The position numbers were made by a program, and so were the translations under genes. 8,343 bases of DNA from a virus: the IMG/VR virus record IMGVR_UViG_3300025343_000001; one strand, given 5' to 3'. Numbering within the stretch: position 1 is the stretch's first letter; each line of letters begins with the position of its first letter. Of the stretch, positions 1 to 8,343 are shown one piece after another. The notes beneath the pieces were generated by a model. It was given only the letters and a program-made list of their open reading frames with translations, was not told the DNA's origin and made no database searches.

Positions 1-127
1 AAGATGCGGTGGCAACTGCAACACCGATGTTTGACACAGGGACCGTGCGATAGAGCGGCGTCTGCACGTTCTATTCGCTGGTTGAACCGAGTCGAAATGA
101 TGTTGATGGCGATTAACATATTCGCTG
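1..127. repeat. Terminal direct repeat, left copy (exact 127-bp match to 8217..8343); signature of a circular molecule linearised with overlap
   Basis: Direct comparison of both window ends: 127/127 identical, and the repeat abuts both window edges. Implied unit length 8,216 bp. Confidence 0.95.
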
Positions 128-137: not shown

Positions 138-350
138 CAAGCCGGTTGATTTGAACCCCTGATTGATCATGTAGAGACCGGGCATCGCGAATAGAAACGC
201 AACTGCAACAGCTCGCATTATCACCCACGAATGTGAAGTCCACGGTTCGACCGGGGAGGTCGAGCGGATCACGACTAGATCGACAAAGCGGTCGATCGGG
301 TTCGTGGGTGTGTCATATTTGGAACTCATAATGTGAGGTTCGAGGGAGGG

Positions 351-752
351 TTACCGAACAGCGACACCCCAGGCGACGACGGTCGCGAGGAACGCGACGA
401 TCGGGCCGAGGTTGCTGCTAGTGTTGATAACGTCGGCGACCTGGGGAACGTACTGGTAGCTCGCGATGATGACCGGGCCGAGAGCGATCGCGACCTGTTC
501 CCACTGCTCGTAACTGTCAAACTGCTTAGTCTCACTGCTGGCGAAGGCAATCGCGTAGGCGCCCAGGGAGATGAATGTGGCGTGTTCGGCGGTGAGCGTG
601 TAGTCGATCCACGTCAGCAGCACCTCCGAGATCCCGCCGAACTGGTAGAGCCCGGCGATGATGAACACGACTGACAGCAGCGCGGGAAGCGTCCGCAGGT
701 GAGTGTAATCCGAGAGGACGTTGCCCATCGAGTTTGAGTAGGACGACGCCAT
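351..752 (-). CDS. Small integral membrane protein, about 4 predicted TM helices (possible virion internal membrane protein, VP3-like)
   Basis: 133-aa ORF with four hydrophobic stretches (LPALLSVVFIIAGLY, ATFISLGAYAIAFA, VAIALGPVIIASY, LGPIVAFLATVVAWGVAV). Its ATG overlaps the upstream stop as ATGA at 752. The membrane-protein call is from sequence; the VP3 analogy rests on gene order only. Confidence 0.6.
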   Translation of the reverse strand: MASSYSNSMGNVLSDYTHLRTLPALLSVVFIIAGLYQFGGISEVLLTWIDYTLTAEHATFISLGAYAIAFASSETKQFDSYEQWEQVAIALGPVIIASYQYVPQVADVINTSSNLGPIVAFLATVVAWGVAVR

Positions 753-1099
753 CAGGAGTCACCCTGAATCTTGCAGAAGGTGGGAAGGTAGTTCCCGCCG
801 TCGTCCAGCTCCTGCTCTTCGACACCACGGGCGATCCAGGCGGTATCACCAAGTTGGAGGTTGCCCTGCTTGAGCGCAGTCTTCACCTCATCTTTGGCGA
901 AATAGTCCACGACACCACGGTCTTTGTCCTTGATTGTGAGGCGGAACCACGGACCGTATTCGCTTTCCCCTTCGGTGATATCGAGGACAAACCCGACCAG
1001 CGTTTCACCAGGAGAAAGTTCGATTGCTTCCGATCCATCCGACGTAGGCGCGGCGGCATCAATGAAGCCGTCCGGCGCGGTTGGCGTTTCACTCGACAT
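752..1099 (-). CDS. Hypothetical small acidic protein (116 aa from the ATG at 1099; the ORF is open back to an ATG at 1183)
   Basis: ORF 752..1183 on the minus strand. The internal ATG at 1099 is preferred because codons upstream of it run through an AT-rich promoter-like island. No recognisable motif. ATGA coupling to the downstream membrane protein gene. Confidence 0.5.
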   Translation of the reverse strand: MSSETPTAPDGFIDAAAPTSDGSEAIELSPGETLVGFVLDITEGESEYGPWFRLTIKDKDRGVVDYFAKDEVKTALKQGNLQLGDTAWIARGVEEQELDDGGNYLPTFCKIQGDS

Positions 1100-1195
1100 T
1101 GCAATTACAAATGTGAACGATTTGCATATAAAGCATGAACCTGTGCGGAGTGAAAGTAAAACCCAGAACCAGCAGCACACCATGATTTATTATAT
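1100..1195 (-). promoter_or_regulatory. AT-rich promoter-like island between the replication gene stop and the small acidic protein gene
   Basis: Only strongly AT-rich stretch in this part of the window. On the minus strand it carries TATA-like elements (ccatataaatataataaatc near 1185..1204, ctttatatgc about 25-35 nt upstream of the ATG at 1099) and a short T-rich run after the upstream stop. Archaeal TATA and leaderless-mRNA logic is established knowledge; the assignment here is inference. Confidence 0.4.
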
Positions 1196-3229
1196 TTATA
1201 TGGTACTTTTGACTGTAGATCGGATTTCGTCGAGCGCGGACGGTGGGAGCATGAGCTGGCCAGCGATGGAGATAGGCGAAGTCTCGCCAGTAGTCTCAAC
1301 CAGCTCCCTAATCGCAACCAGCTCGCGTTCACCGAGTTTCGGTTCGGGTGACGACTGTCTCTCGAATCGGGTAGTGTACCAGTTATCAGACCACTGCTTT
1401 GGTGTCAACCGACGATCTGCGTGAACAGTTTCGCACCACTCGCGAGCGACCAGCTCCGGCGGGGGAACTCGACCGGAGCGAACATCAGATTCGTCGAAGA
1501 ACGACGGGTTTTCCCAGGGTTCCGGCCCTTCGAGGGAAGAGGATAGCGGGAGATACGGAAAGTCGGTTTTATCCATTATCGAGCCGGCTCCCTCAACGAC
1601 GATCGTGCCGTAGGCCGTAGCACCGGGAGATCCGATTTCGGTCACTTCCTCTGTTGAGAGCTGAACAACAGCATCAGGTGACCATTCGGGTTCCCGATCG
1701 AATCCATCTCGTTTCGTTTCAGCAGGTGGAGCTTCAGCAGAATCAGGTATCGGTACCTCTGCTGAAACCGTATGATTCGGAGATTCGGTTTCAGTGGCAC
1801 AGAGGGGACAGGTATCTGGTTCGGCGTGGCCACACCGTCGAAGGCGTGTCTCAGAACCGATCGACCCGGCCGATCGAGCCGAAGGCCACCGTTCTGCAAG
1901 TGTTTGAGGGATCTCATCAGTCTCTTCCTGGTCATCTGCAGATTGAGACAGACGGAAGCGTGCAAGCGACGACTCAGATTGATCGATACCGTGAGGGGAC
2001 CCGCACTCCGCGCATTCGTAGGTGAGTCCCGGTCTTGAAGAACGGACGATTGAATCGCCATGTTCAACAATCTGACCGGTTTGGGAGTCGAGATACTGTT
2101 GTTGACAGGCATCGGCTTTGACAGCCGCCGTTGCCCACCGCGAGCGGCTGTATTTCTGTGTCGTCGTCGACCATTGAGAGGCGGCCCAAATTAAATACTC
2201 GTCCGAACGCTCAAGGAGGTCTTGGTCCGGATCGACGGCGACATATTCGGAGACGTAGGACGCGAAGTCCTGAATCTCGTCGTCTTTGCGCACAGTCACT
2301 GCACGATCCATATCGTGTGCAGACCAAGCGGCGCCCTCACACTCAGAGACGTGTTTCGCGACGACCGGACGGTAAGTCTCTGGGTCAGTTGCGACACTCG
2401 TGGAGATCGCAGCTGCATCGAGGATAACGACGGGATGGCTGTGAGAATAGCCCGTCGCGTCTTCCTGTGGGCCGGGATGGGGTTCGGACTGCCAGTGCCA
2501 GACGTATTCACCGGACGAGAGTCCGAGTTTGTCCTCAAGAACATAGCGAAGCGTTCGTTTCACCGAATTTGAAGAACCTGACCACGCATCACGAATCCCC
2601 CGATCGTGATCAGCTATCGGACGAAACGACCCATCGTCCTCAAGCGACGAGGCGGTCAGACCGAACAAAACCGTAACGGGCTCGGAGAACTCGGGTTCGC
2701 AAGTATGTCCCCTCGGATATTCTCCACCCATAAACTGACGCTCTAAAGCCTTGAGACGTGCGTACTGGGCAGTCTGATACGACGGGGTGAGACTGTTGTC
2801 CATATCGATCAAGAACGATTCGTAGTCGTTCCGGACCTCGGAGCCGCGAGCCATCCGAAGAAACTTGTCGCGATATCCTTCGTACCATTCAAGCATTTCC
2901 TGAATGCCAGCGATCAGCGGGAGAGACCCACGCGAAACGGTTTCCTCGATCTTTTTCTCTTCGGTTTCGCCAATTTCAACGACCCGAGTGACCGTCTCAG
3001 GCTCCTCAAGTACCTCTTCGCGAAGTTTCCGACCGTGGACGGTGGAGATAGGTTCGAAGACGCGATCTCCGTACCGTTCGATAATTCCAGAGATCCGTTC
3101 TTCAACGGTCGGGAGACCGGAAGGACGGAAAGATAGTTCTGGTGACTCAGGGCCTGTATCGGTCGACGCGGGGTTAGTCACGTTGGATAGCCAAGCCGCA
3201 TCCGCATCGGCTTCCCGCGGCGAGCTCAT
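1196..3229 (-). CDS. Putative replication initiation protein, 677 aa, with an HUH-like motif and a Cys4 zinc-ribbon-like region
   Basis: Longest ORF in the window. HSHPVVIL (codons at 2420..2443) fits the HUH motif 2 of rolling-circle Rep proteins. Upstream VLFGLT (about 2654..2671) is a weak motif-1 candidate; downstream tyrosines YRPVVAK and YVSEY (about 2243..2257) are motif-3 candidates. CAEC ... CGH ... CPLC lies at about 1799..2014. No Walker A motif. The function is inferred from motifs only. Confidence 0.5.
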   Translation of the reverse strand: MSSPREADADAAWLSNVTNPASTDTGPESPELSFRPSGLPTVEERISGIIERYGDRVFEPISTVHGRKLREEVLEEPETVTRVVEIGETEEKKIEETVSRGSLPLIAGIQEMLEWYEGYRDKFLRMARGSEVRNDYESFLIDMDNSLTPSYQTAQYARLKALERQFMGGEYPRGHTCEPEFSEPVTVLFGLTASSLEDDGSFRPIADHDRGIRDAWSGSSNSVKRTLRYVLEDKLGLSSGEYVWHWQSEPHPGPQEDATGYSHSHPVVILDAAAISTSVATDPETYRPVVAKHVSECEGAAWSAHDMDRAVTVRKDDEIQDFASYVSEYVAVDPDQDLLERSDEYLIWAASQWSTTTQKYSRSRWATAAVKADACQQQYLDSQTGQIVEHGDSIVRSSRPGLTYECAECGSPHGIDQSESSLARFRLSQSADDQEETDEIPQTLAERWPSARSAGSIGSETRLRRCGHAEPDTCPLCATETESPNHTVSAEVPIPDSAEAPPAETKRDGFDREPEWSPDAVVQLSTEEVTEIGSPGATAYGTIVVEGAGSIMDKTDFPYLPLSSSLEGPEPWENPSFFDESDVRSGRVPPPELVAREWCETVHADRRLTPKQWSDNWYTTRFERQSSPEPKLGERELVAIRELVETTGETSPISIAGQLMLPPSALDEIRSTVKSTI

Positions 3230-3254
3230 CGGTCACCTGCAGTCGACTCCATGT

Positions 3255-3671
3255 TCACAGAAACCGCCCCCGCCCAGCAGACTCGGAGAGGCCCGGCCCA
3301 AGGCCGGGTGCGGCGACAGAGTCGCCGGTCGGGTCAGCCCCCCGTTGAAGGGGGGCTGCTTCCGCCCGTGATTGCGACGGCGATTGGCGCTCGCCGTCGC
3401 TTCCGCCACCGCCACTCGTTTGGCGAGCTTCGGTCGCCTGTGAGCGGTCGGCGCAGCTAGATCCGCGTTCGAGGCAGTCGAGCGCGTGGCCGTATTCGAT
3501 TCCCGTGGTCAGGTTGCTGGTACATCTCTGTCCGCAGACAGGACACCAGAATTCACCCGGGCCGTCAGCGGTGAGATGAGAGTTGGAGTTAGAACGGGAA
3601 CCGAGAGTCGCGTCGCTGGAGAGATCATCTAGATCGGCGTCCTCGACGAAGTCGGAGAGATCGTCGTCCAT
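3255..3671 (-). CDS. Small zinc-finger protein with acidic N-terminus (138 aa from the ATG at 3671; the ORF is open back to 3794)
   Basis: ORF 3255..3794. The ATG at 3671 is preferred because upstream codons cross the AT-rich promoter island and hairpins. Contains CPVCGQRC ... H ... C ... C (CxxC plus His/Cys). N-terminus MDDDLSDFVEDADLDDL is encoded by the 48-bp repeat. Confidence 0.5.
   Translation of the reverse strand: MDDDLSDFVEDADLDDLSSDATLGSRSNSNSHLTADGPGEFWCPVCGQRCTSNLTTGIEYGHALDCLERGSSCADRSQATEARQTSGGGGSDGERQSPSQSRAEAAPLQRGADPTGDSVAAPGLGPGLSESAGRGRFL
3292..3357. promoter_or_regulatory. Cluster of three consecutive perfect GC-rich hairpins just upstream of the replication gene start (candidate origin or operator)
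   Basis: Hairpin 1: cccggcc/ggccggg, 7-bp stem, loop caa (3292..3308). Hairpin 2: cggcgac/gtcgccg, 7-bp stem, loop aga (3311..3327). Hairpin 3: agcccccc/ggggggct, 8-bp stem, loop gttgaa (3336..3357). It overlaps the 3' end of the zinc-finger ORF. Confidence 0.4.
3621..3668. repeat. 48-bp imperfect direct repeat, copy A (43/48 identical to 4903..4950); encodes acidic motif DDDLSDFVEDADLDDL
   Basis: Manual alignment of gagatcAtctagatcggCgtcctcgacgaAgtcggagagAtcgtcgTc against copy B gives 5 mismatches. Contains tctagatcgg. Confidence 0.85.
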
Positions 3672-3751: not shown

Positions 3752-3812
3752 GCGCGGCCCCCCACAAGGAGGGGCCGCGCAGGCTGCCGCCCACTGAAAA
3801 GGGTGGGTGGGT
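3752..3812 (-). terminator. Hairpin plus T-tract terminator-like structure downstream of the NTPase gene
   Basis: Perfect 10-bp GC stem gcgcggcccc/ggggccgcgc (3752..3761 with 3771..3780, 9-nt loop), followed by a second shorter hairpin cccac/gtggg whose loop on the coding strand contains TTTT. It lies directly after the NTPase stop and before the promoter-like island. Confidence 0.4.
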
Positions 3813-3860
3813 CGGTGAGTGGAGAACCGTGTTTAGATGTGATTATCGGACGAATTATGA

Positions 3861-4817
3861 CTATGCCGGTCCACGGTCGCGAAGCTCATCAAGAAGATCG
3901 GGCCAGTCGAGGTCGAGTGCGAATAGGTCGGGTTCGAGGTTCCAGTCCCACGGCGCCGCGTCATTCGGGTCCGGTTCCGCGGTGGCAGGTTCGAGATTTT
4001 CCAGGGACCCGCCGAACAGCTGATCGGTAGGCTTGTCGGCATCAGCAGGCCAGTTTTCGAAGAAGTCGACTTCCTTCTTTGAGTGTTTGAAGTACGCGGT
4101 CGTGAACAGCCGCTTCAGCTCAGGGTGACAGTCCTTGCCCGTGTGGAACACCGTGCCGAACACGTCGACGTTGACCTTCGCCATCCGCTTGGCGAGCGGC
4201 GAGAATTGCGCCGCGACCTCGTAGGAGTTAGTTCGAGCATCGAAGTGAGTCGACCCCTCATCGATGAAGACGAACTTCGGCCGATCGCGATGTTTGATGC
4301 AGGTGACTGCGAGGTCGTGTGCGCTGGTAACGACCTTGTCCGTGAGCGGCCAGGTCCGCGAGTTAGATATGACAAGGAGATCGTCGACGGTCGCGGAACG
4401 GAGCTCGGCAAGCAACGACATCAGGTTCGTCTTGCCCGTGTTCGGGTTACCGCAGCCACCGATGAACGCGGTCGCGTCATTGTTGGTCATCATGTCGTCG
4501 AGCCGCAGCGGGAGACGCAGCGCCGAGGCGTCGAGGTCCTGCTCAGTGATACCGACCAAATGTGAGAGCAACAAGGAGTTACCAGAATGGATCGCTTCGG
4601 ACGCCTGCCGGGACTGCTGGGTCCGATCGACGAGGGACAGCAGCTCGGAGTGCCCGGACACGTCGGGATCAATATCGTCGAGGAACACAGAGGCAGCCAC
4701 ATCGTCGGGAGCGAGTGCACCCGCACCGGAGGCGAGGTTTCGGTCCGTATCGATGTTCCCGGCCAGCTGTTCGGCGAGCTTCGCCGCGGTCAGCATCCCC
4801 TCATCGGAATCACCCAT
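3861..4817 (-). CDS. P-loop NTPase (Walker A GNPNTGKT, Walker B FVFIDE); candidate virion-associated ATPase
   Basis: 318-aa ORF. Walker A is encoded at 4428..4451 (checked by reverse-complement translation) and Walker B about 50 residues later at about 4257..4274. Start overlaps the upstream gene by 8 nt. Confidence 0.8.
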   Translation of the reverse strand: MGDSDEGMLTAAKLAEQLAGNIDTDRNLASGAGALAPDDVAASVFLDDIDPDVSGHSELLSLVDRTQQSRQASEAIHSGNSLLLSHLVGITEQDLDASALRLPLRLDDMMTNNDATAFIGGCGNPNTGKTNLMSLLAELRSATVDDLLVISNSRTWPLTDKVVTSAHDLAVTCIKHRDRPKFVFIDEGSTHFDARTNSYEVAAQFSPLAKRMAKVNVDVFGTVFHTGKDCHPELKRLFTTAYFKHSKKEVDFFENWPADADKPTDQLFGGSLENLEPATAEPDPNDAAPWDWNLEPDLFALDLDWPDLLDELRDRGPA

Positions 4818-6187: not shown

Positions 6188-7957
6188 TTAGTTGTTCAGA
6201 CCGAAGAAGGCGACCACGGCACCGACGCCGAGAGCGACGACTTCTCCGGGCAGTCCGAACATGTCGAGCTGTCCGAGGTCGAGGCCGCCGCCGTTGTTCT
6301 GCGAGTCCTCGAACTTCTCGATCAGGTCTTGATTCTGTTTTTCGAGCTGATCCCACTCCTCCTGTGAAACGTAGTTGTCGTCAGTCTGTGGTTGAGCGTT
6401 GTCGAAGCTCGTAGTCGAAACTTCTTCACCAGATTCAGTGTTCATCAACTTGTCGACGCTAAACGGGCCGTCGAGTTGCAGCGTTTCAAACTGCGTCTCG
6501 GTGGCGGCGGAGACGAAGCGCGCAGATTCAACGTTCGTGATGTTGGTTTCGAGGTCAGCCGAGGCGTCGTAGGACCACGTGCCGTCGCCGTTATCCGTCC
6601 AGTCAACAGCAGGGACAGAGACGGTTTCAGAGGCAGCAGTTGTCACTTCGATTGCGGTTCCCTCATACGGTTCCTCAGTGATCGTTATGGATCCACCATC
6701 GACCGCCGTCTCATAGGCGACCCAGTCGCCCGATACAAGACTCGTGTCGGCCGTGAAGTACACATCACCGACGAAGGTGGACGGGTCGTAGGTCGTACCC
6801 GACTCAATCGGGCCGTCCGACGAGTCGGTTAGCCCGAACGTGCCGGACAGCGTTGCGCCAGTGCTGTTGATAGTGATTGTCGCCTCGCGTTCGAGATCGA
6901 CCGGAATATTAAGCGCAATGAGGTCAGAGATTGCCTGCGAGGTGCCTTCCTCCTCGCTCATCATAGCAGCGCGTTCGCGAGGCGTCACGAGGTCACTGAC
7001 CGAGAGCTCGCCGGACTGAACATCGCCGTAGACGTTCGTAACCCACATCGAGATGCCATCCAAGACGCTTTGGTGCACGGTCGAGATCTCGTCATGGATT
7101 CCCTTCCACGTAGGCCCGTCTAAATATATGACGCTTTCGCCGTCGGGGTTGGGGTTGGAAACGATGACGTTGAAGTTATGGTCGACGTTGTAACCGCGCA
7201 CGTCCAAATTCAGAGGATCAGCAACGGCCCGTGCGCCTTCCACCATACCATTCACGCCCTCTAACTGAAAGGTCGACCCATCGAACAACGTAATGTCTCG
7301 GGTCAATTTGTCCGTGAAATTGCCGAAGTCGCGGTCAACCTTAGTGACCCCTGAATCCAGCACCGCACCCGGACTCAGGTCAGGGTGCGACTGCAGAGTC
7401 GACCGCAGATTGTAGAACTCGCGGACCGACTCATTCCATGTCTTGAGTAGATTCTCCTGAACCGTGCTCAGGTAGGCAGACACAGCAGATTTCGCCGCGG
7501 TTTGAACCTCAGACTCAGAGACTCCCGCGTTCAATTGCTCAATGGCGGCGATCTTGGCGTCGACGTAGGCGGTGTTTTCCACGCCGTCAAGGATGTTCTG
7601 GTTGTCGATGATCGTCGAGGCGTTCGTCGACTTCCGGGTTTTCACAGTCTGATAGACCTGCTGTTTCAGCACGTCACCAGTTAGTCCCTCAGCAGGTGCG
7701 TCAGAGCCGACGACCTCGTATTCACGGAGAGCCCAACCGAGTGCGACAGAGCCGGCGACACCACCGGCAATGATAACCGGAGCGATAGCCTGCCCGTTTT
7801 GGACGGGCGAGCCAGCGACTCGTGATCCGCCGTAGTAGGCCGCGCCAGCGCCAATTGTGGTAGCTCCAACCCGGCCAAGGAATTGTCGTCGATTGATACC
7901 TTCGTGATCTAGATCATCATCTAGATCGGTGTGTTTGTTCTTATTCATTGGAATCAC
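6188..7957 (-). CDS. Envelope/spike-like glycoprotein candidate, 589 aa: twin-arginine signal, large ectodomain, coiled-coil-like segment, C-terminal TM anchor
   Basis: N-terminus has INRRQFLGRVGATTIGAGAA (Tat-type RRxFLG motif plus hydrophobic region). C-terminus LPGEVVALGVGAVVAFFGL is a TM anchor, preceded by the heptad-like QEEWDQLEKQNQDLIEKFE. Five N-x-S/T sequons (NAS, NES, NFT, NST, NIT). The spike function is inferred by analogy to pleolipovirus VP4-type proteins. Confidence 0.7.
   Translation of the reverse strand: MIPMNKNKHTDLDDDLDHEGINRRQFLGRVGATTIGAGAAYYGGSRVAGSPVQNGQAIAPVIIAGGVAGSVALGWALREYEVVGSDAPAEGLTGDVLKQQVYQTVKTRKSTNASTIIDNQNILDGVENTAYVDAKIAAIEQLNAGVSESEVQTAAKSAVSAYLSTVQENLLKTWNESVREFYNLRSTLQSHPDLSPGAVLDSGVTKVDRDFGNFTDKLTRDITLFDGSTFQLEGVNGMVEGARAVADPLNLDVRGYNVDHNFNVIVSNPNPDGESVIYLDGPTWKGIHDEISTVHQSVLDGISMWVTNVYGDVQSGELSVSDLVTPRERAAMMSEEEGTSQAISDLIALNIPVDLEREATITINSTGATLSGTFGLTDSSDGPIESGTTYDPSTFVGDVYFTADTSLVSGDWVAYETAVDGGSITITEEPYEGTAIEVTTAASETVSVPAVDWTDNGDGTWSYDASADLETNITNVESARFVSAATETQFETLQLDGPFSVDKLMNTESGEEVSTTSFDNAQPQTDDNYVSQEEWDQLEKQNQDLIEKFEDSQNNGGGLDLGQLDMFGLPGEVVALGVGAVVAFFGLNN
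7906..7927. repeat. Tandem CTAGATC motifs including a perfect 10-bp palindrome gatctagatc, at the 5' end of the spike gene
   Basis: gatctagatc at 7906..7915 and tctagatcgg at 7920..7929. Encodes HTDLDDDLDH in the spike N-terminal region. Same core motif as the 48-bp repeats. Confidence 0.6.
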
Positions 7958-8135: not shown

Positions 8136-8335
8136 TGGCATTTCTCCCCGTTTTCGGAAGAGCATATTGAGCTCCCCGAACAGTGCGGGCAGTCTGTTCC
8201 GTGCATCACTGAGTCAAAGATGCGGTGGCAACTGCAACACCGATGTTTGACACAGGGACCGTGCGATAGAGCGGCGTCTGCACGTTCTATTCGCTGGTTG
8301 AACCGAGTCGAAATGATGTTGATGGCGATTAACAT
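8132..8335 (-). CDS. Small Cys/His-rich protein (67 aa), crossing the terminal-repeat junction
   Basis: CVKHRCCSCH ... H ... CPHCSGSSIC pattern. First gene of the apparent spike operon. No clear TATA box upstream, so support is weak. Confidence 0.3.
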   Translation of the reverse strand: MLIAINIISTRFNQRIERADAALSHGPCVKHRCCSCHRIFDSVMHGTDCPHCSGSSICSSENGEKCQ

Positions 8336-8343
8336 ATTCGCTG
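8217..8343. repeat. Terminal direct repeat, right copy (identical to 1..127)
   Basis: Exact identity to 1..127. The minus-strand ORF 8132..8335 runs through it, so in the circular molecule that ORF begins at coordinate 119. Confidence 0.95.

What the first reader, a model, noticed from the sequence alone, without database searches (positions are those of the whole stretch)
3292..3357. Triple GC-rich hairpin cluster immediately upstream of the replication gene
Three perfect stem-loops (7, 7 and 8 bp stems) are packed into 66 bp, 60-130 bp upstream of the Rep start. Rolling-circle origins and Rep operators typically consist of hairpins next to rep. The region is also annotated as the 3' tail of the zinc-finger ORF, so either the coding sequence is constrained by DNA structure or that ORF ends earlier than predicted.
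Basis: partly seen in the sequence, partly recalled or inferred. Interest (0 to 1): 0.55.

Follow-up and report, generated by a model that had tools for sequence, protein, structure and literature searches.

The report
Plasmid-type hairpin cassette beside replication origin
The hairpins are real: they form a four-hairpin, non-coding DNA cassette that this archaeal virus shares with small salt-lake plasmids, placed just upstream of the likely replication nick site and most probably marking where the second DNA strand is started.

Summary
The hairpins exist and are not chance. There are four perfect ones (7, 7, 9 and 10 bp) within 109 nt, which no shuffle reproduced.

The window is a complete 8,216-bp circular alphapleolipovirus-like replicon, with all genes on the minus strand. 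The hairpins belong to a ~165-nt cassette (3242-3407). I found 64 copies of it (46 distinct sequences) in hypersaline metagenomes:
- in ~1.6-kb pZMX201-like rolling-circle plasmids;
- in Rep-less minicircles;
- at several sites in related pleolipoviruses.

Stems change by compensatory substitutions (99.2% of cells paired; 12 different versions of hairpin 3). Loops and the overlapping "protein" are not conserved.

The zinc-finger ORF tail is accidental read-through. In most relatives examined the ORF stops after 62 aa, and one relative that has the cassette reads it in a shifted frame.

The cassette is not the nick site. A unique match to the haloarchaeal plasmid origin motif (TCTCGGCnnnCnnnG) lies inside the first 50 nt of rep (3182-3196). 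That is 99 nt downstream of the last hairpin, the same spacing as in the plasmids (85-124 nt).

Best reading (about 0.5): a single-strand origin, where host enzymes prime complementary-strand synthesis. Rivals are a Rep-binding accessory of the origin, an RNA leader element, or a recombination scar. This is an ordinary kind of element in a new setting.

The parts
3292..3308 (-). Hairpin 1: CCCGGCC-TTG-GGCCGGG, 7-bp stem and 3-nt loop
   Evidence: The stem is invariant in relatives, which is partly forced by the search pattern. The loop varies (TTG, CAC, ATG, TTT, CTG).
3311..3327 (-). Hairpin 2: CGGCGAC-TCT-GTCGCCG, 7-bp stem and 3-nt loop
   Evidence: It shows a compensatory A:T to G:C change in most relatives, and its loop varies (TCT, CTTG, AGA, TGT).
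3335..3358 (-). Hairpin 3: CAGCCCCCC-TTCAAC-GGGGGGCTG, 9-bp stem and 6-nt loop
   Evidence: There are 12 different versions among 46 cassette variants, and every one is a hairpin: 11 have perfect stems and one has a single G:T wobble. pZMX201 carries GGCCCCC-TCCCAT-GGGGGCC at the equivalent place.
3374..3400 (-). Hairpin 4: GCGACGGCGA-GCGCCAA-TCGCCGTCGC, 10-bp stem and 7-nt loop.
   Evidence: Three stem positions covary and the loop GCGCCAA is mostly constant. Some copies replace it with a different hairpin, CTGAAC-AGGCG-GTTCAG.
3358..3366 (-). Conserved motif GGCGGAAGC immediately 5' of hairpin 3 (overlaps its first base); mostly unpaired in the folds
   Evidence: Direct repeat D3. It is invariant in alignment A1. 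A (C/G)GGAAGC motif also sits next to hairpins in pZMX201, pNVE2 and pBOL4-2.
3399..3407 (-). Second copy of GGCGGAAGC, immediately 5' of hairpin 4 (overlaps its first two bases); left edge of the cassette
3242..3407 (-). Whole plasmid-type hairpin cassette. It is present here but absent at this site in 84-91%-Rep relatives.
   Evidence: The boundaries come from comparison with L002-L010 and with plasmid and virus copies.
3407..3454 (-). Remnant of the native pleolipovirus rep-upstream element. It includes degenerate hairpin HpB' (3422-3438, GGCGACC-GAA-GcTCGCC, with one C.C mismatch).
   Evidence: It is about 90% identical to the rep-upstream region of L002-L010 and 93.6% identical to Humcor2, whose Rep is only 32% identical.
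3182..3196 (-). Candidate double-strand origin (nick site): GCTT/GGCTATCCAAC, at nt 34-48 of rep. The nick is inferred between 3193 and 3192.
   Evidence: It is the only match in the window to YCTYGGCYWTCCAAS, with 0.00 expected. It is homologous to TCTCGGCTATCCAAG(ACTAAC) of pZMX201 and the metagenomic plasmids, and to TCTCGGC at the same place in rep of L231, L232 and HHPV-2. The motif TCTCGGCnnnCnnnG is quoted from Zhou 2008 in PMC9569500.
3163..3223 (.). 10-nt inverted repeat (90% complementary) bracketing the candidate nick site
   Evidence: pair I4. I did not test whether it is conserved.
1196..3229 (-). Rep, 677 aa, a rolling-circle initiator of the DUF1424 (pGRB1/pZMX201-like) family
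   Evidence: Pfam PF07232 at 4.6e-16 and phrog_10542 at 5.5e-120. It is 37-38% identical to the HHPV-1 and HHPV-2 Reps.
3255..3671 (-). Zinc-finger (CxxC...H..C) ORF. Only 3472-3671 is conserved as protein. The tail 3255-3471 is read-through of non-coding DNA.
3752..3780 (-). Separate 10-bp hairpin between the ATPase gene and the zinc-finger ORF promoter region. It is not part of the cassette.
   Evidence: It is conserved in L003 and L141 with one compensatory G:C to A:T change.

Best explanation
The hairpin cluster is a non-coding, structure-selected cassette of the replication-origin region. It was acquired by recombination from co-resident pZMX201/pGRB1-like rolling-circle plasmids. It most likely acts as the single-strand origin (sso).

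Proposed mechanism:
1. Rep nicks the gene-sense strand (the window's minus strand) at GCTT/GGCTATCCAAC, inside the first 50 nt of its own gene.
2. Leading-strand synthesis peels that strand off.
3. The cassette lies 99-207 nt 5' of the nick, so it is exposed last.
4. Once single-stranded, it folds into four GC-rich hairpins separated by constant motifs that are largely unpaired (GGCGGAAGC twice, ACCCGAC).
5. Host priming enzymes then start the complementary strand there.
6. The same would happen on an incoming single-stranded virion genome.

What is shown: the hairpins, their covariation, the lack of protein conservation, homology to the plasmid cassette, constant orientation, and constant spacing from the origin motif.

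What is inferred: the nick position (by homology) and the sso function itself.
For: 1. The hairpins are real and non-random.

2. Structure is selected rather than sequence. In 25 variants, 99.2% of cells are paired. Seven pairs and 23 cells changed on both sides, and 0 of 500 shuffles reached the observed paired percentage, number of doubly changed cells or covariation score (1 of 500 reached the count of seven pairs). Slid controls gave 0-2 pairs. RNAalifold independently recovers the four hairpins. Hairpin 3 has 12 versions, all hairpins.

3. The region is not protein. Homologous ORFs stop after 62 aa in most relatives examined. The L019 tail is frame-shifted across the hairpins.

4. The same cassette lies 85-124 nt upstream of the TCTCGGC origin motif in 31 instances. 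The window's spacing is 99 nt. No origin motif occurs on the opposite strand in any of the 64 instances. pZMX201 and four other sequenced family plasmids also have GC-rich hairpins upstream of TCTCGGC, 60-250 nt in four of them.

5. These are the textbook sso properties: upstream of the dso, orientation-specific, several stem-loops, structure mattering more than sequence, and Rep-independent (PMC4595007; PMC5714925; PMC9569500).

6. The cassette does not track Rep.
- It is about 85-90% identical next to Reps that share only 27-31% identity.
- It also precedes a non-orthologous Rep (PF23343/phrog_12863) where no pGRB1-type origin motif is found.
- It is absent from this site in relatives with 84-91% identical Rep, which carry other hairpins (HpA, HpB) there.

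7. Rep-less minicircles keep the cassette.
Against: - No sso has, to my knowledge, been defined experimentally in haloarchaeal or any archaeal rolling-circle replicon, so there is nothing to match by homology.
- Perfect palindromes fold equally on both strands. Strand specificity rests only on constant orientation and on three G:T wobbles against zero A:C, which is weak.
- GGCGG-type repeats flank the hairpins and the nick, so Rep binding is not excluded.
- The metagenome pattern fixed the outer stem of hairpin 2 and the 5' arm of hairpin 1. Their invariance is therefore partly ascertainment.
- Many copies are related by descent or recombination, so counts overstate independent events.
- The differences between the window and L019 could come from exchange with the plasmid pool rather than from selection inside the virus.
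Confidence: 0.5

Rival explanations
1. The cassette is an accessory part of the double-strand origin. It would be a Rep-binding or enhancer locus (hairpins extruded as cruciforms, or GGCGG-type repeats acting as iterons) that helps Rep find and nick the nearby TCTC/GGC-like site.
For: - Its spacing from the origin motif is constant.
- (G)GCGG repeats flank the hairpins and sit directly 5' of the nick in the plasmids (GGGGCGGTTCTCGGC) and in the window (GCGGATGCGGCTTGGC).
- Origins with separate bind and nick loci are known, for example pMV158 at 84 bp apart (abstract of PMC1851628) and SNJ2 (PMC13107129).
Against: - Relatives with 84-91% identical Rep lack the cassette at this site.
- The cassette is near-identical beside Reps of 27-31% identity, and beside a non-orthologous Rep with no pGRB1-type origin motif.
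- In some elements it lies 580-704 nt from the motif.
- Stem sequences vary freely, which is unlike a sequence-specific binding site.
Confidence: 0.2
2. The cassette acts as RNA. The hairpins would sit in the intercistronic or leader part of the zinc-finger-ORF/rep transcript and tune Rep synthesis. Possible routes are mRNA stability, occlusion of the Shine-Dalgarno sequence, coupling to termination of the upstream ORF 26 nt before the rep ATG, or acting as the target of an antisense copy-control RNA.
For: - The cassette has the same orientation as the genes everywhere.
- I saw no TATA-like promoter motif between the zinc-finger ORF and rep in the sequences, and rep is preceded by a Shine-Dalgarno-like GGAGGTGA/CAGGTGA, which suggests co-transcription.
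- The RNA fold is very stable (-88 kcal/mol, z = -3.7).
- The few non-Watson-Crick pairs are G:U-compatible on the sense strand.
Against: - The cassette occurs in inconsistent RNA contexts. It is found before rep, after the ATPase gene upstream of a promoter-like AT-rich region, and in Rep-less minicircles 580-704 nt from any rep remnant.
- The loops, which are the usual antisense contact points, are not conserved.
- No Rfam family matches.
Confidence: 0.12
3. The cassette is a functionless recombination scar or a selfish palindromic element. In this reading, plasmid DNA was captured by illegitimate or short-homology recombination (for example at GTGGCGGTG) and has simply not yet decayed.
For: - The cassette is patchy among close relatives and sits at several sites.
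- The L003 insert is a plasmid segment permuted at the nick site and flanked by a 13-nt duplication.
- One degenerate copy exists, at L019 249-284.
- The window's hairpin 4 is identical to one L019 copy, while the other L019 copy equals a plasmid version. This suggests exchange rather than in-place evolution.
Against: - All 64 copies keep every hairpin, nearly always perfect, despite many substitutions, which shows purifying selection somewhere in the pool.
- The window, L019, L156 and L180 lost the native HpA hairpin region and kept this cassette at the same distance from the nick, as expected for a functional replacement.
- No terminal inverted repeats were seen.
Confidence: 0.1
4. The hairpins contain the Rep nick site itself, with a loop-borne origin as in CRESS-DNA viruses.
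For: Hairpins next to rep are the classic origin layout. The betapleolipovirus SNJ2 uses an essential hairpin as its origin.
Against: - All four loops vary or can be replaced.
- No TCTCGGC-like motif lies in 3292-3400.
- The unique origin-motif match is at 3182-3196.
- The cluster is absent in 84-91%-Rep relatives.
Confidence: 0.03
5. The region is genuine coding sequence, a C-terminal tail of the zinc-finger protein, and the palindromes are incidental.
For: An uninterrupted ORF covers it in the window, in L019 and apparently in L180.
Against: - The tail is missing from the 62-aa homologues.
- It is frame-shifted between the window and L019.
- It is homologous to non-coding plasmid DNA.
- I estimate that a stop-free run of about 70 codons at roughly 70% GC has about a 30% chance probability.
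Confidence: 0.02

Closest known systems
Origin region of pZMX201 and other pGRB1-family haloarchaeal rolling-circle plasmids (double-strand origin TCTCGGCnnnCnnnG; Zhou et al. 2008, as quoted in PMC9569500)
   Same: - The Rep family is the same (DUF1424).
- The window carries a homologous origin motif (GCTTGGCTATCCAAC against TCTCGGCTATCCAAG).
- GC-rich hairpins lie upstream of the nick. pZMX201 has GGCCCCC-TCCCAT-GGGGGCC, which equals common hairpin-3 variants, followed by CCGGCCC-GAAC-GGGCCGG.
- A GGAAGC motif sits beside the hairpins.
   Different: - The window is an 8.2-kb virus-like genome, not a 1.7-kb plasmid.
- The motif sits inside the rep ORF and deviates at 3 of 15 positions.
- BLAST finds no match to the cassette in sequenced plasmids.
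- I could not retrieve the 2008 paper, so I do not know whether it discusses the hairpins.
Single-strand origins of bacterial rolling-circle plasmids and ICEs (for example pBAA1, pTA1060 and ICEBs1 sso1)
   Same: - It is a cluster of three or more stem-loops on the displaced strand.
- It lies upstream of the double-strand origin.
- Orientation is constant.
- Structure is conserved more than sequence.
- It moves as a cassette independently of Rep.
   Different: - There is no sequence homology, and none is expected.
- The host is archaeal, and its priming enzyme at such sites is unknown.
- Function is untested here.
Origin hairpin of the betapleolipovirus SNJ2 (Rep-Arvir family; PMC13107129)
   Same: It is in a pleolipovirus, it is a hairpin-forming cis element next to the replication gene, and the structure is essential rather than the sequence.
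   Different: - The SNJ2 element lies downstream of rep.
- It is a single conserved hairpin proposed as the nick site.
- It belongs to a non-HUH Rep family.
- The window's cluster is upstream, multi-hairpin, has variable loops, and is separate from the candidate nick.
Native rep-upstream hairpins HpA and HpB of related alphapleolipoviruses (Humcor2, and proviruses of Halorubrum amylolyticum and Halorubrum sp. BV1)
   Same: - They occupy the same position relative to rep and the nick.
- HpA also covaries with a constant loop, CGGAC.
   Different: - The sequence family is different.
- The window has lost HpA, retains a damaged HpB, and carries the plasmid-type cassette instead.

Membership tests
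Single-strand origin (sso) of rolling-circle replicons | Carried by a replicon with an HUH Rep and a double-strand origin | tested here: met
   Rep matches PF07232 and phrog_10542. A unique origin-motif match lies at 3182-3196.
Single-strand origin (sso) of rolling-circle replicons | Non-coding region with extensive intrastrand secondary structure | tested here: met
   There are four perfect hairpins, with z about -3.7. The overlapping ORF tail is not conserved as protein.
Single-strand origin (sso) of rolling-circle replicons | Structure conserved rather than primary sequence | tested here: met
   99.2% of cells are paired, 7 pairs and 23 cells changed on both sides, and 0 of 500 shuffles reached the observed covariation score. 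Hairpin 3 has 12 forms. RNAalifold agrees.
Single-strand origin (sso) of rolling-circle replicons | Located upstream of the double-strand origin, so that it is displaced last | tested here: met
   In the window the cassette is 99-207 nt upstream of the inferred nick. The spacing is 85-124 nt in 31 instances. The rule is cited from PMC4595007 and PMC9569500.
Single-strand origin (sso) of rolling-circle replicons | Works in one orientation only | tested here: inconclusive
   All 64 instances are co-oriented with the Rep genes, and no origin motif lies on the opposite strand. This is consistent, but the copies are not independent and function was not assayed.
Single-strand origin (sso) of rolling-circle replicons | Rep-independent priming by host enzymes, which lowers ssDNA accumulation | not testable with these tools
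   This needs plasmid assays such as non-denaturing Southern blots and primer mapping.
pGRB1/pZMX201-type double-strand origin (nick site) | Motif TCTCGGCnnnCnnnG, or a close variant, within the element | tested here: not met
   There is no match within 3292-3400. The only match in the window is at 3182-3196.
Loop-borne nick site (CRESS-type stem-loop origin) | Invariant loop sequence across relatives | tested here: not met
   The loops of hairpins 1-3 vary, and hairpin 4 can be replaced by another hairpin.
Transcription terminator (hairpin plus T-run, or archaeal oligo-T) | A run of T on the sense strand after the hairpin | tested here: not met
   Read directly from the sequence. The hairpins are followed by ACCCGACC, CA and CCTCTCCGAG, with no T-run.
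MITE/PATE-like mobile palindromic element | Terminal inverted repeats, target-site duplication, and many dispersed genomic copies | tested here: inconclusive
   No terminal inverted repeats were seen. A 13-nt duplication flanks only the L003/L141 insert. Every contig whose genes I could identify was a plasmid or a pleolipovirus.
Protein-coding tail of the zinc-finger ORF | Amino-acid conservation in homologues | tested here: not met
   The homologues in most relatives are 62 aa and lack the tail. The L019 tail is frame-shifted.
Any described RNA family (Rfam 15) | Covariance-model match | tested here: not met
   There are no relevant matches even at E up to 1.

The most novel reading that the evidence does not exclude
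The cassette is more than a priming site. It would be a shared cis signal that lets small plasmids and Rep-less minicircles exploit pleolipoviruses, or the reverse. For example, it could be a recognition or packaging element for the displaced single strand. The ~1.6-kb plasmids and ~2-kb Rep-less circles would then be satellites that are replicated in trans and exported in pleolipovirus vesicle-like virions. That would explain why viruses with two non-orthologous Rep families, small plasmids and minicircles all keep the same cassette, and why one host CRISPR array targets all of them.
Probability: 0.07. Interest if true: 0.8.

Novelty: new member of a known kind. Interest (0 to 1): 0.45.

Why it matters
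No alphapleolipovirus origin has been mapped experimentally. The literature I could reach offers only predicted double-strand origins in an unavailable supplement of PMC3384331, and a mapped origin for the unrelated betapleolipovirus Rep (PMC13107129).

This analysis gives concrete, testable candidates for both origins of one complete genome:
- a nick site inside the 5' end of rep;
- a covariation-supported hairpin cassette upstream of it.

It also shows that the cassette is exchanged between viruses and pZMX201-like plasmids. That fits the view that pleolipovirus replication modules come from plasmids (PMC6668415, PMC10599561), and extends it from the rep gene to the cis elements.

In practice it also warns annotators. 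GC-rich origin cassettes contain no stop codons and inflate neighbouring ORFs, as seen in the window's zinc-finger ORF and probably in the RefSeq Rep CDS of pZMX201.

If the sso reading holds, this would, to my knowledge, be the first defined lagging-strand origin type in haloarchaeal rolling-circle elements.

Tried and rejected
Searches and look-ups that led nowhere:
- IMG/VR scans were unproductive. Rep peptide patterns found no relatives. The hairpin-3 pattern hit only unrelated hairpins in unrelated contexts. A loose GGCGGAAGC...GGCGGAAGC pattern returned more than 120 hits, none of which matched the window's cassette region by BLAST. A tighter cassette pattern returned nothing.
- Rfam gave no relevant hit.
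- BLAST of 3176-3460 against PLSDB found nothing. Against GenBank phages it found only the HpB element of Humcor2.
- Zhou et al. 2008 (the pZMX201 origin paper) could not be read by DOI or PMC id. The supplement of PMC3384331, which holds predicted pleolipovirus origins, is not held.
- Text searches for pZMX201, TCTCGGC, heptanucleotide, and haloarchaeal sso gave nothing usable.

Ideas I rejected:
- TCTCGGT at about 3595 in the zinc-finger ORF as the nick site. It is not conserved in relatives.
- TCTCGGC heptamers at about 478, 5450 and 6228. They lack the extended motif.
- A terminator function, because no T-runs follow the hairpins.
- A coding constraint, because the tail is absent or frame-shifted in relatives.
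- MAFFT alignment of the short hairpin-3 variants. It was unreliable, so I analysed hairpin 3 separately with an anchor-based script.
Full report
**What the window is**

The last 127 bases repeat the first 127, so the window is a circular contig of 8,216 bp. All convincing genes are on the minus strand:
- spike protein, 7957..6188
- two conserved ORFs
- ATPase, 4817..3861
- a small zinc-finger ORF, 3671..3255
- Rep, 3229..1196 (Pfam DUF1424 4.6e-16; phrog_10542 5.5e-120)
- a small ORF
- a VP3-like membrane protein

The closest isolate is the alphapleolipovirus Halorubrum virus Humcor2, at 81.5% DNA identity over the structural genes. Rep is 37-38% identical to the Reps of HHPV-1 and HHPV-2.

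The three hairpins are at the stated coordinates, with stems of 7, 7 and 9 bp. A fourth perfect 10-bp hairpin lies at 3374-3400, and an imperfect fifth at 3422-3438.

Four perfect hairpins of at least 7 bp within 110 nt never occurred in 300 genome shuffles or 3000 local shuffles. Folding z-scores are about -3.7 for either strand, as DNA or RNA. The motif GGCGGAAGC directly precedes hairpins 4 and 3.

**The relatives settle the coding question**

Rep homologues of 78-92% identity are common in hypersaline metagenomes and in Halorubrum genomes.

In the relatives L002-L010 (Rep 79-91% identical) the zinc-finger ORF is 62 aa and stops about 220 nt before rep, except in L008, whose contig holds only 93 nt upstream of rep. 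L140 and L141 (Rep 90%) have the same layout. The spacer there contains two other perfect hairpins:
- HpA: GGTCCGC-N5-GCGGACC
- HpB: GGCGACC-GAA-GGTCGCC

These are followed by a Shine-Dalgarno sequence and the ATG.

The window lacks the stop codon and HpA. It keeps only about 48 nt around a damaged HpB (3407-3454). It then carries about 165 nt (3407-3242) that those relatives do not have at this site, and this stretch is the hairpin cluster.

A further relative, L019 (Rep 89%), has the same arrangement as the window but with compensatory stem changes:
- Hairpin 4: GCGACGGCGA/TCGCCGTCGC becomes GCGCCCGCGG/CCGCGGGCGC.
- Hairpin 3: the C-run/G-run stem is replaced by a G-run/C-run stem.
- Hairpin 2: an A:T pair becomes G:C.
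- Hairpin 1: the stem is unchanged and the loop differs.

Its ORF tail is frame-shifted across hairpins 4 and 3, so the amino acids there are unrelated. The ORF tail is therefore read-through of non-coding DNA.

**The cluster is a widespread cassette**

One metagenome scan with a 23-base pattern spanning hairpin 2 returned 88 loci, and 51 of them hold true copies. Together with the window and earlier loci this gives 64 instances and 46 distinct sequences.

On a 25-sequence alignment:
- 99.2% of cells are paired.
- 7 pairs and 23 cells changed on both sides.
- 0 of 500 shuffles reached the observed covariation score.
- Slid-partner controls gave 0-2 such pairs.

RNAalifold independently predicts the same four hairpins.

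Hairpin 3 exists in 12 forms, all hairpins. Hairpin 4 is sometimes replaced by a different hairpin, CTGAAC-AGGCG-GTTCAG. The loops of hairpins 1-3 vary freely. The only non-Watson-Crick pairs seen are three G:T pairs on the gene-sense strand.

One caveat applies. The search pattern fixed the outer stem of hairpin 2 and the 5' arm of hairpin 1, so their invariance is partly ascertainment. Many copies also share ancestry.

**Where the cassette lives**

1. *Small plasmids.* Many contigs are exact tandem repeats of a 1.55-1.7-kb unit with one gene. That gene is a DUF1424 Rep (2.4e-72), 60% identical to the Rep of pZMX201 from Natrinema, and only 27-31% identical to the window's Rep core.
2. *Rep-less circles.* Repeating units of about 2 kb carry the cassette, an origin-like site, fragments of two Rep types, and an unrelated 231-aa ORF.
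3. *Pleolipovirus contigs.* The cassette lies before rep in the window, L019, L156, L180 and L184. It lies after the ATPase gene in L003, L141 and L229, and L019 has copies at both sites.
4. *A different Rep family.* The cassette also lies upstream of a non-orthologous 681-aa Rep (PF23343, phrog_12863) in L165 and L205.

It is always co-oriented with the Rep and the other identified virus genes.

**Finding the double-strand origin**

PMC9569500, citing Zhou et al. 2008, gives TCTCGGCnnnCnnnG as the origin of haloarchaeal rolling-circle plasmids. The same paper notes that single-strand origins usually lie 100-200 bp upstream of double-strand origins.

pZMX201 has TCTCGGCTATCCAAG(ACTAAC) at position 400, with hairpins 61-123 nt upstream. 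One of these, GGCCCCC-TCCCAT-GGGGGCC, equals common hairpin-3 variants. The metagenomic plasmids have the same motif.

In the pleolipovirus relatives L231 and L232, and in HHPV-2, TCTCGGC lies about 30 nt inside the rep ORF.

The window has GCTTGGCTATCCAAC followed by GTGACTAAC at rep nt 34-57. This is the only match in the window to a degenerate form of the motif, with 0.00 expected by chance.

The inferred nick, between 3193 and 3192, is 99 nt downstream of hairpin 1. In 31 cassette instances this spacing is 85-124 nt, and in 10 it is 580-704 nt. No motif occurs on the opposite strand.

Five sequenced plasmids of the family all show GC-rich hairpins upstream of TCTCGGC, 60-250 nt in four of them, though their sequences differ.

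**Interpretation**

The cluster is not the nick site:
- Its loops vary.
- The motif lies elsewhere.
- 84-91%-Rep relatives lack the cluster at this position.

It is an origin-proximal, strand-consistent, structure-selected cassette that moves independently of Rep. These are the defining properties of single-strand origins:
- upstream of the double-strand origin;
- orientation-specific;
- several stem-loops;
- structure mattering more than sequence;
- Rep not involved.

I therefore favour an sso at about 0.5. In the window it appears to have replaced the native HpA region at the same distance from the nick. HpA itself covaries with a constant loop, CGGAC, across Reps of 32-90% identity. This suggests that the two hairpin sets are functional equivalents.

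The rivals are:
- a Rep-binding accessory of the origin, because GGCGG repeats flank both the hairpins and the nick (0.2);
- an RNA leader or intercistronic element (0.12);
- a recombination scar or selfish cassette (0.1);
- the nick site itself (0.03);
- true coding sequence (0.02).

**How it got there**

The left junction falls in GTGGCGGTG, which is repeated in the plasmids just before the cassette (GGTGGCGGTGGCGGTGGCGGAAGC). Short-homology recombination with a co-resident plasmid is therefore plausible.

The L003/L141 copy is a plasmid segment circularly permuted at the nick site. This points to Rep-mediated illegitimate recombination. Both points are inference.

**Comparison and novelty**

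This is a known kind of element, namely origin-associated hairpins of a rolling-circle replicon. The setting is one where neither origin has been mapped, and the cassette is shared between viruses and plasmids.

BLAST finds no copy of the cassette in sequenced plasmids or phages. I could not read the 2008 pZMX201 paper, so I cannot say whether its hairpins were discussed there.

I rate this a new member of a known kind, with interest 0.45.

Noticed in passing
L153, L160, L189, L200, L214, L225, L227 (metagenome contigs); targets include window 628-658, 3978-4012 and 6551-6586: These are long CRISPR arrays with the repeat GTTTCAGACGCACCCTTGTGGGGTTGAAG and up to 74 repeats. At least 30 of 117 distinct spacers match this community:
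- the window itself;
- related pleolipoviruses;
- Rep genes of the small plasmids;
- the origin motif, where one spacer starts 2 nt before the inferred nick;
- the hairpin cassette, where the spacer ACCCGACCGGCGGCTCTGCCGCCGCACCCGGCCAT is present in all seven arrays.
   Followed up: partly
L147, L202, L151, L171, L218, L142, L183: These contigs are repeats of a ~2-kb unit that carries the cassette, an origin-like site (GCTCGGCTATCCATGACTAAC), fragments of two different Rep genes, and a 231-aa ORF on the opposite strand whose N-terminus looked RHH-like to me by eye (not searched). There is no intact Rep. They are candidate helper-dependent minicircles.
   Followed up: partly
L003 1232-1428 and L141 160-360; equivalent empty site in the window at about 3831-3846: A ~175-nt plasmid-derived insert lies after the ATPase gene. 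It holds hairpins 3-1 plus both sides of the plasmid origin, circularly permuted at the TCTC/GGC nick, and is flanked by a duplicated GATAATCAYATCT. It looks like Rep-mediated illegitimate integration.
   Followed up: partly
L165 2383-4745; L205 384-1055: The same cassette precedes a non-orthologous 681-aa Rep (PF23343 7.9e-7; phrog_12863 1.4e-208). These contigs have no pGRB1-type origin motif within 3 mismatches. The 5' end of that rep (ACTGGGGCGAAAACCGCTCTATTGC...CTAAC) faintly resembles the plasmid origin.
   Followed up: partly
L002 2464-2600; L005 and L009 about 1500-1600: In the integrated proviruses, similarity to the window's circular form begins partway into the zinc-finger ORF, so the provirus ORF has a different N-terminus. 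L002 is integrated next to tRNA-Pro. The zinc-finger/rep unit may therefore be completed only after excision, as reported for SNJ2 (PMC13107129). The window itself encodes no integrase.
   Followed up: no
L001 (Humcor2) 353-424; L231 1386-1404; L232 1351-1369: The native rep-upstream hairpin HpA keeps its loop CGGAC while its stem covaries (GGTCCGC, GGACCGG, GGTCCGG, GCGGCGG) across Reps of 32-90% identity. The HpB element is 93.6% identical between the window and Humcor2, although their Reps are only 32% identical.
   Followed up: partly
L230 (pZMX201, NC_006996.1) 281-414: The RefSeq Rep CDS (295..1455) starts inside a 10-bp hairpin and runs across the mapped origin motif. It is probably over-extended in the same way as the window's zinc-finger ORF.
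   Followed up: no
window 3752-3780: A separate perfect 10-bp hairpin, GCGCGGCCCC-N9-GGGGCCGCGC, lies between the ATPase gene and the AT-rich region upstream of the zinc-finger ORF. It is conserved in L003 and L141 with one compensatory G:C to A:T change. Its function is unknown.
   Followed up: partly
window 3163-3223: A 10-nt inverted repeat (TCGCCGCGGG...CCCGCGTCGA on the minus strand, 90% complementary, 41 nt apart) brackets the candidate nick site, so the nick would lie in the loop. I did not test whether it is conserved.
   Followed up: no
window 1-127 and 8217-8343: The exact 127-nt terminal overlap shows that the window is a circularly closed assembly of 8,216 bp.
   Followed up: yes
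L018 1-290: The closest Rep relative (92% identical) has a different upstream gene of more than 95 aa, with no zinc finger. It overlaps the rep start (ATGA), and there is no hairpin cluster, so the region upstream of rep is highly mosaic.
   Followed up: no
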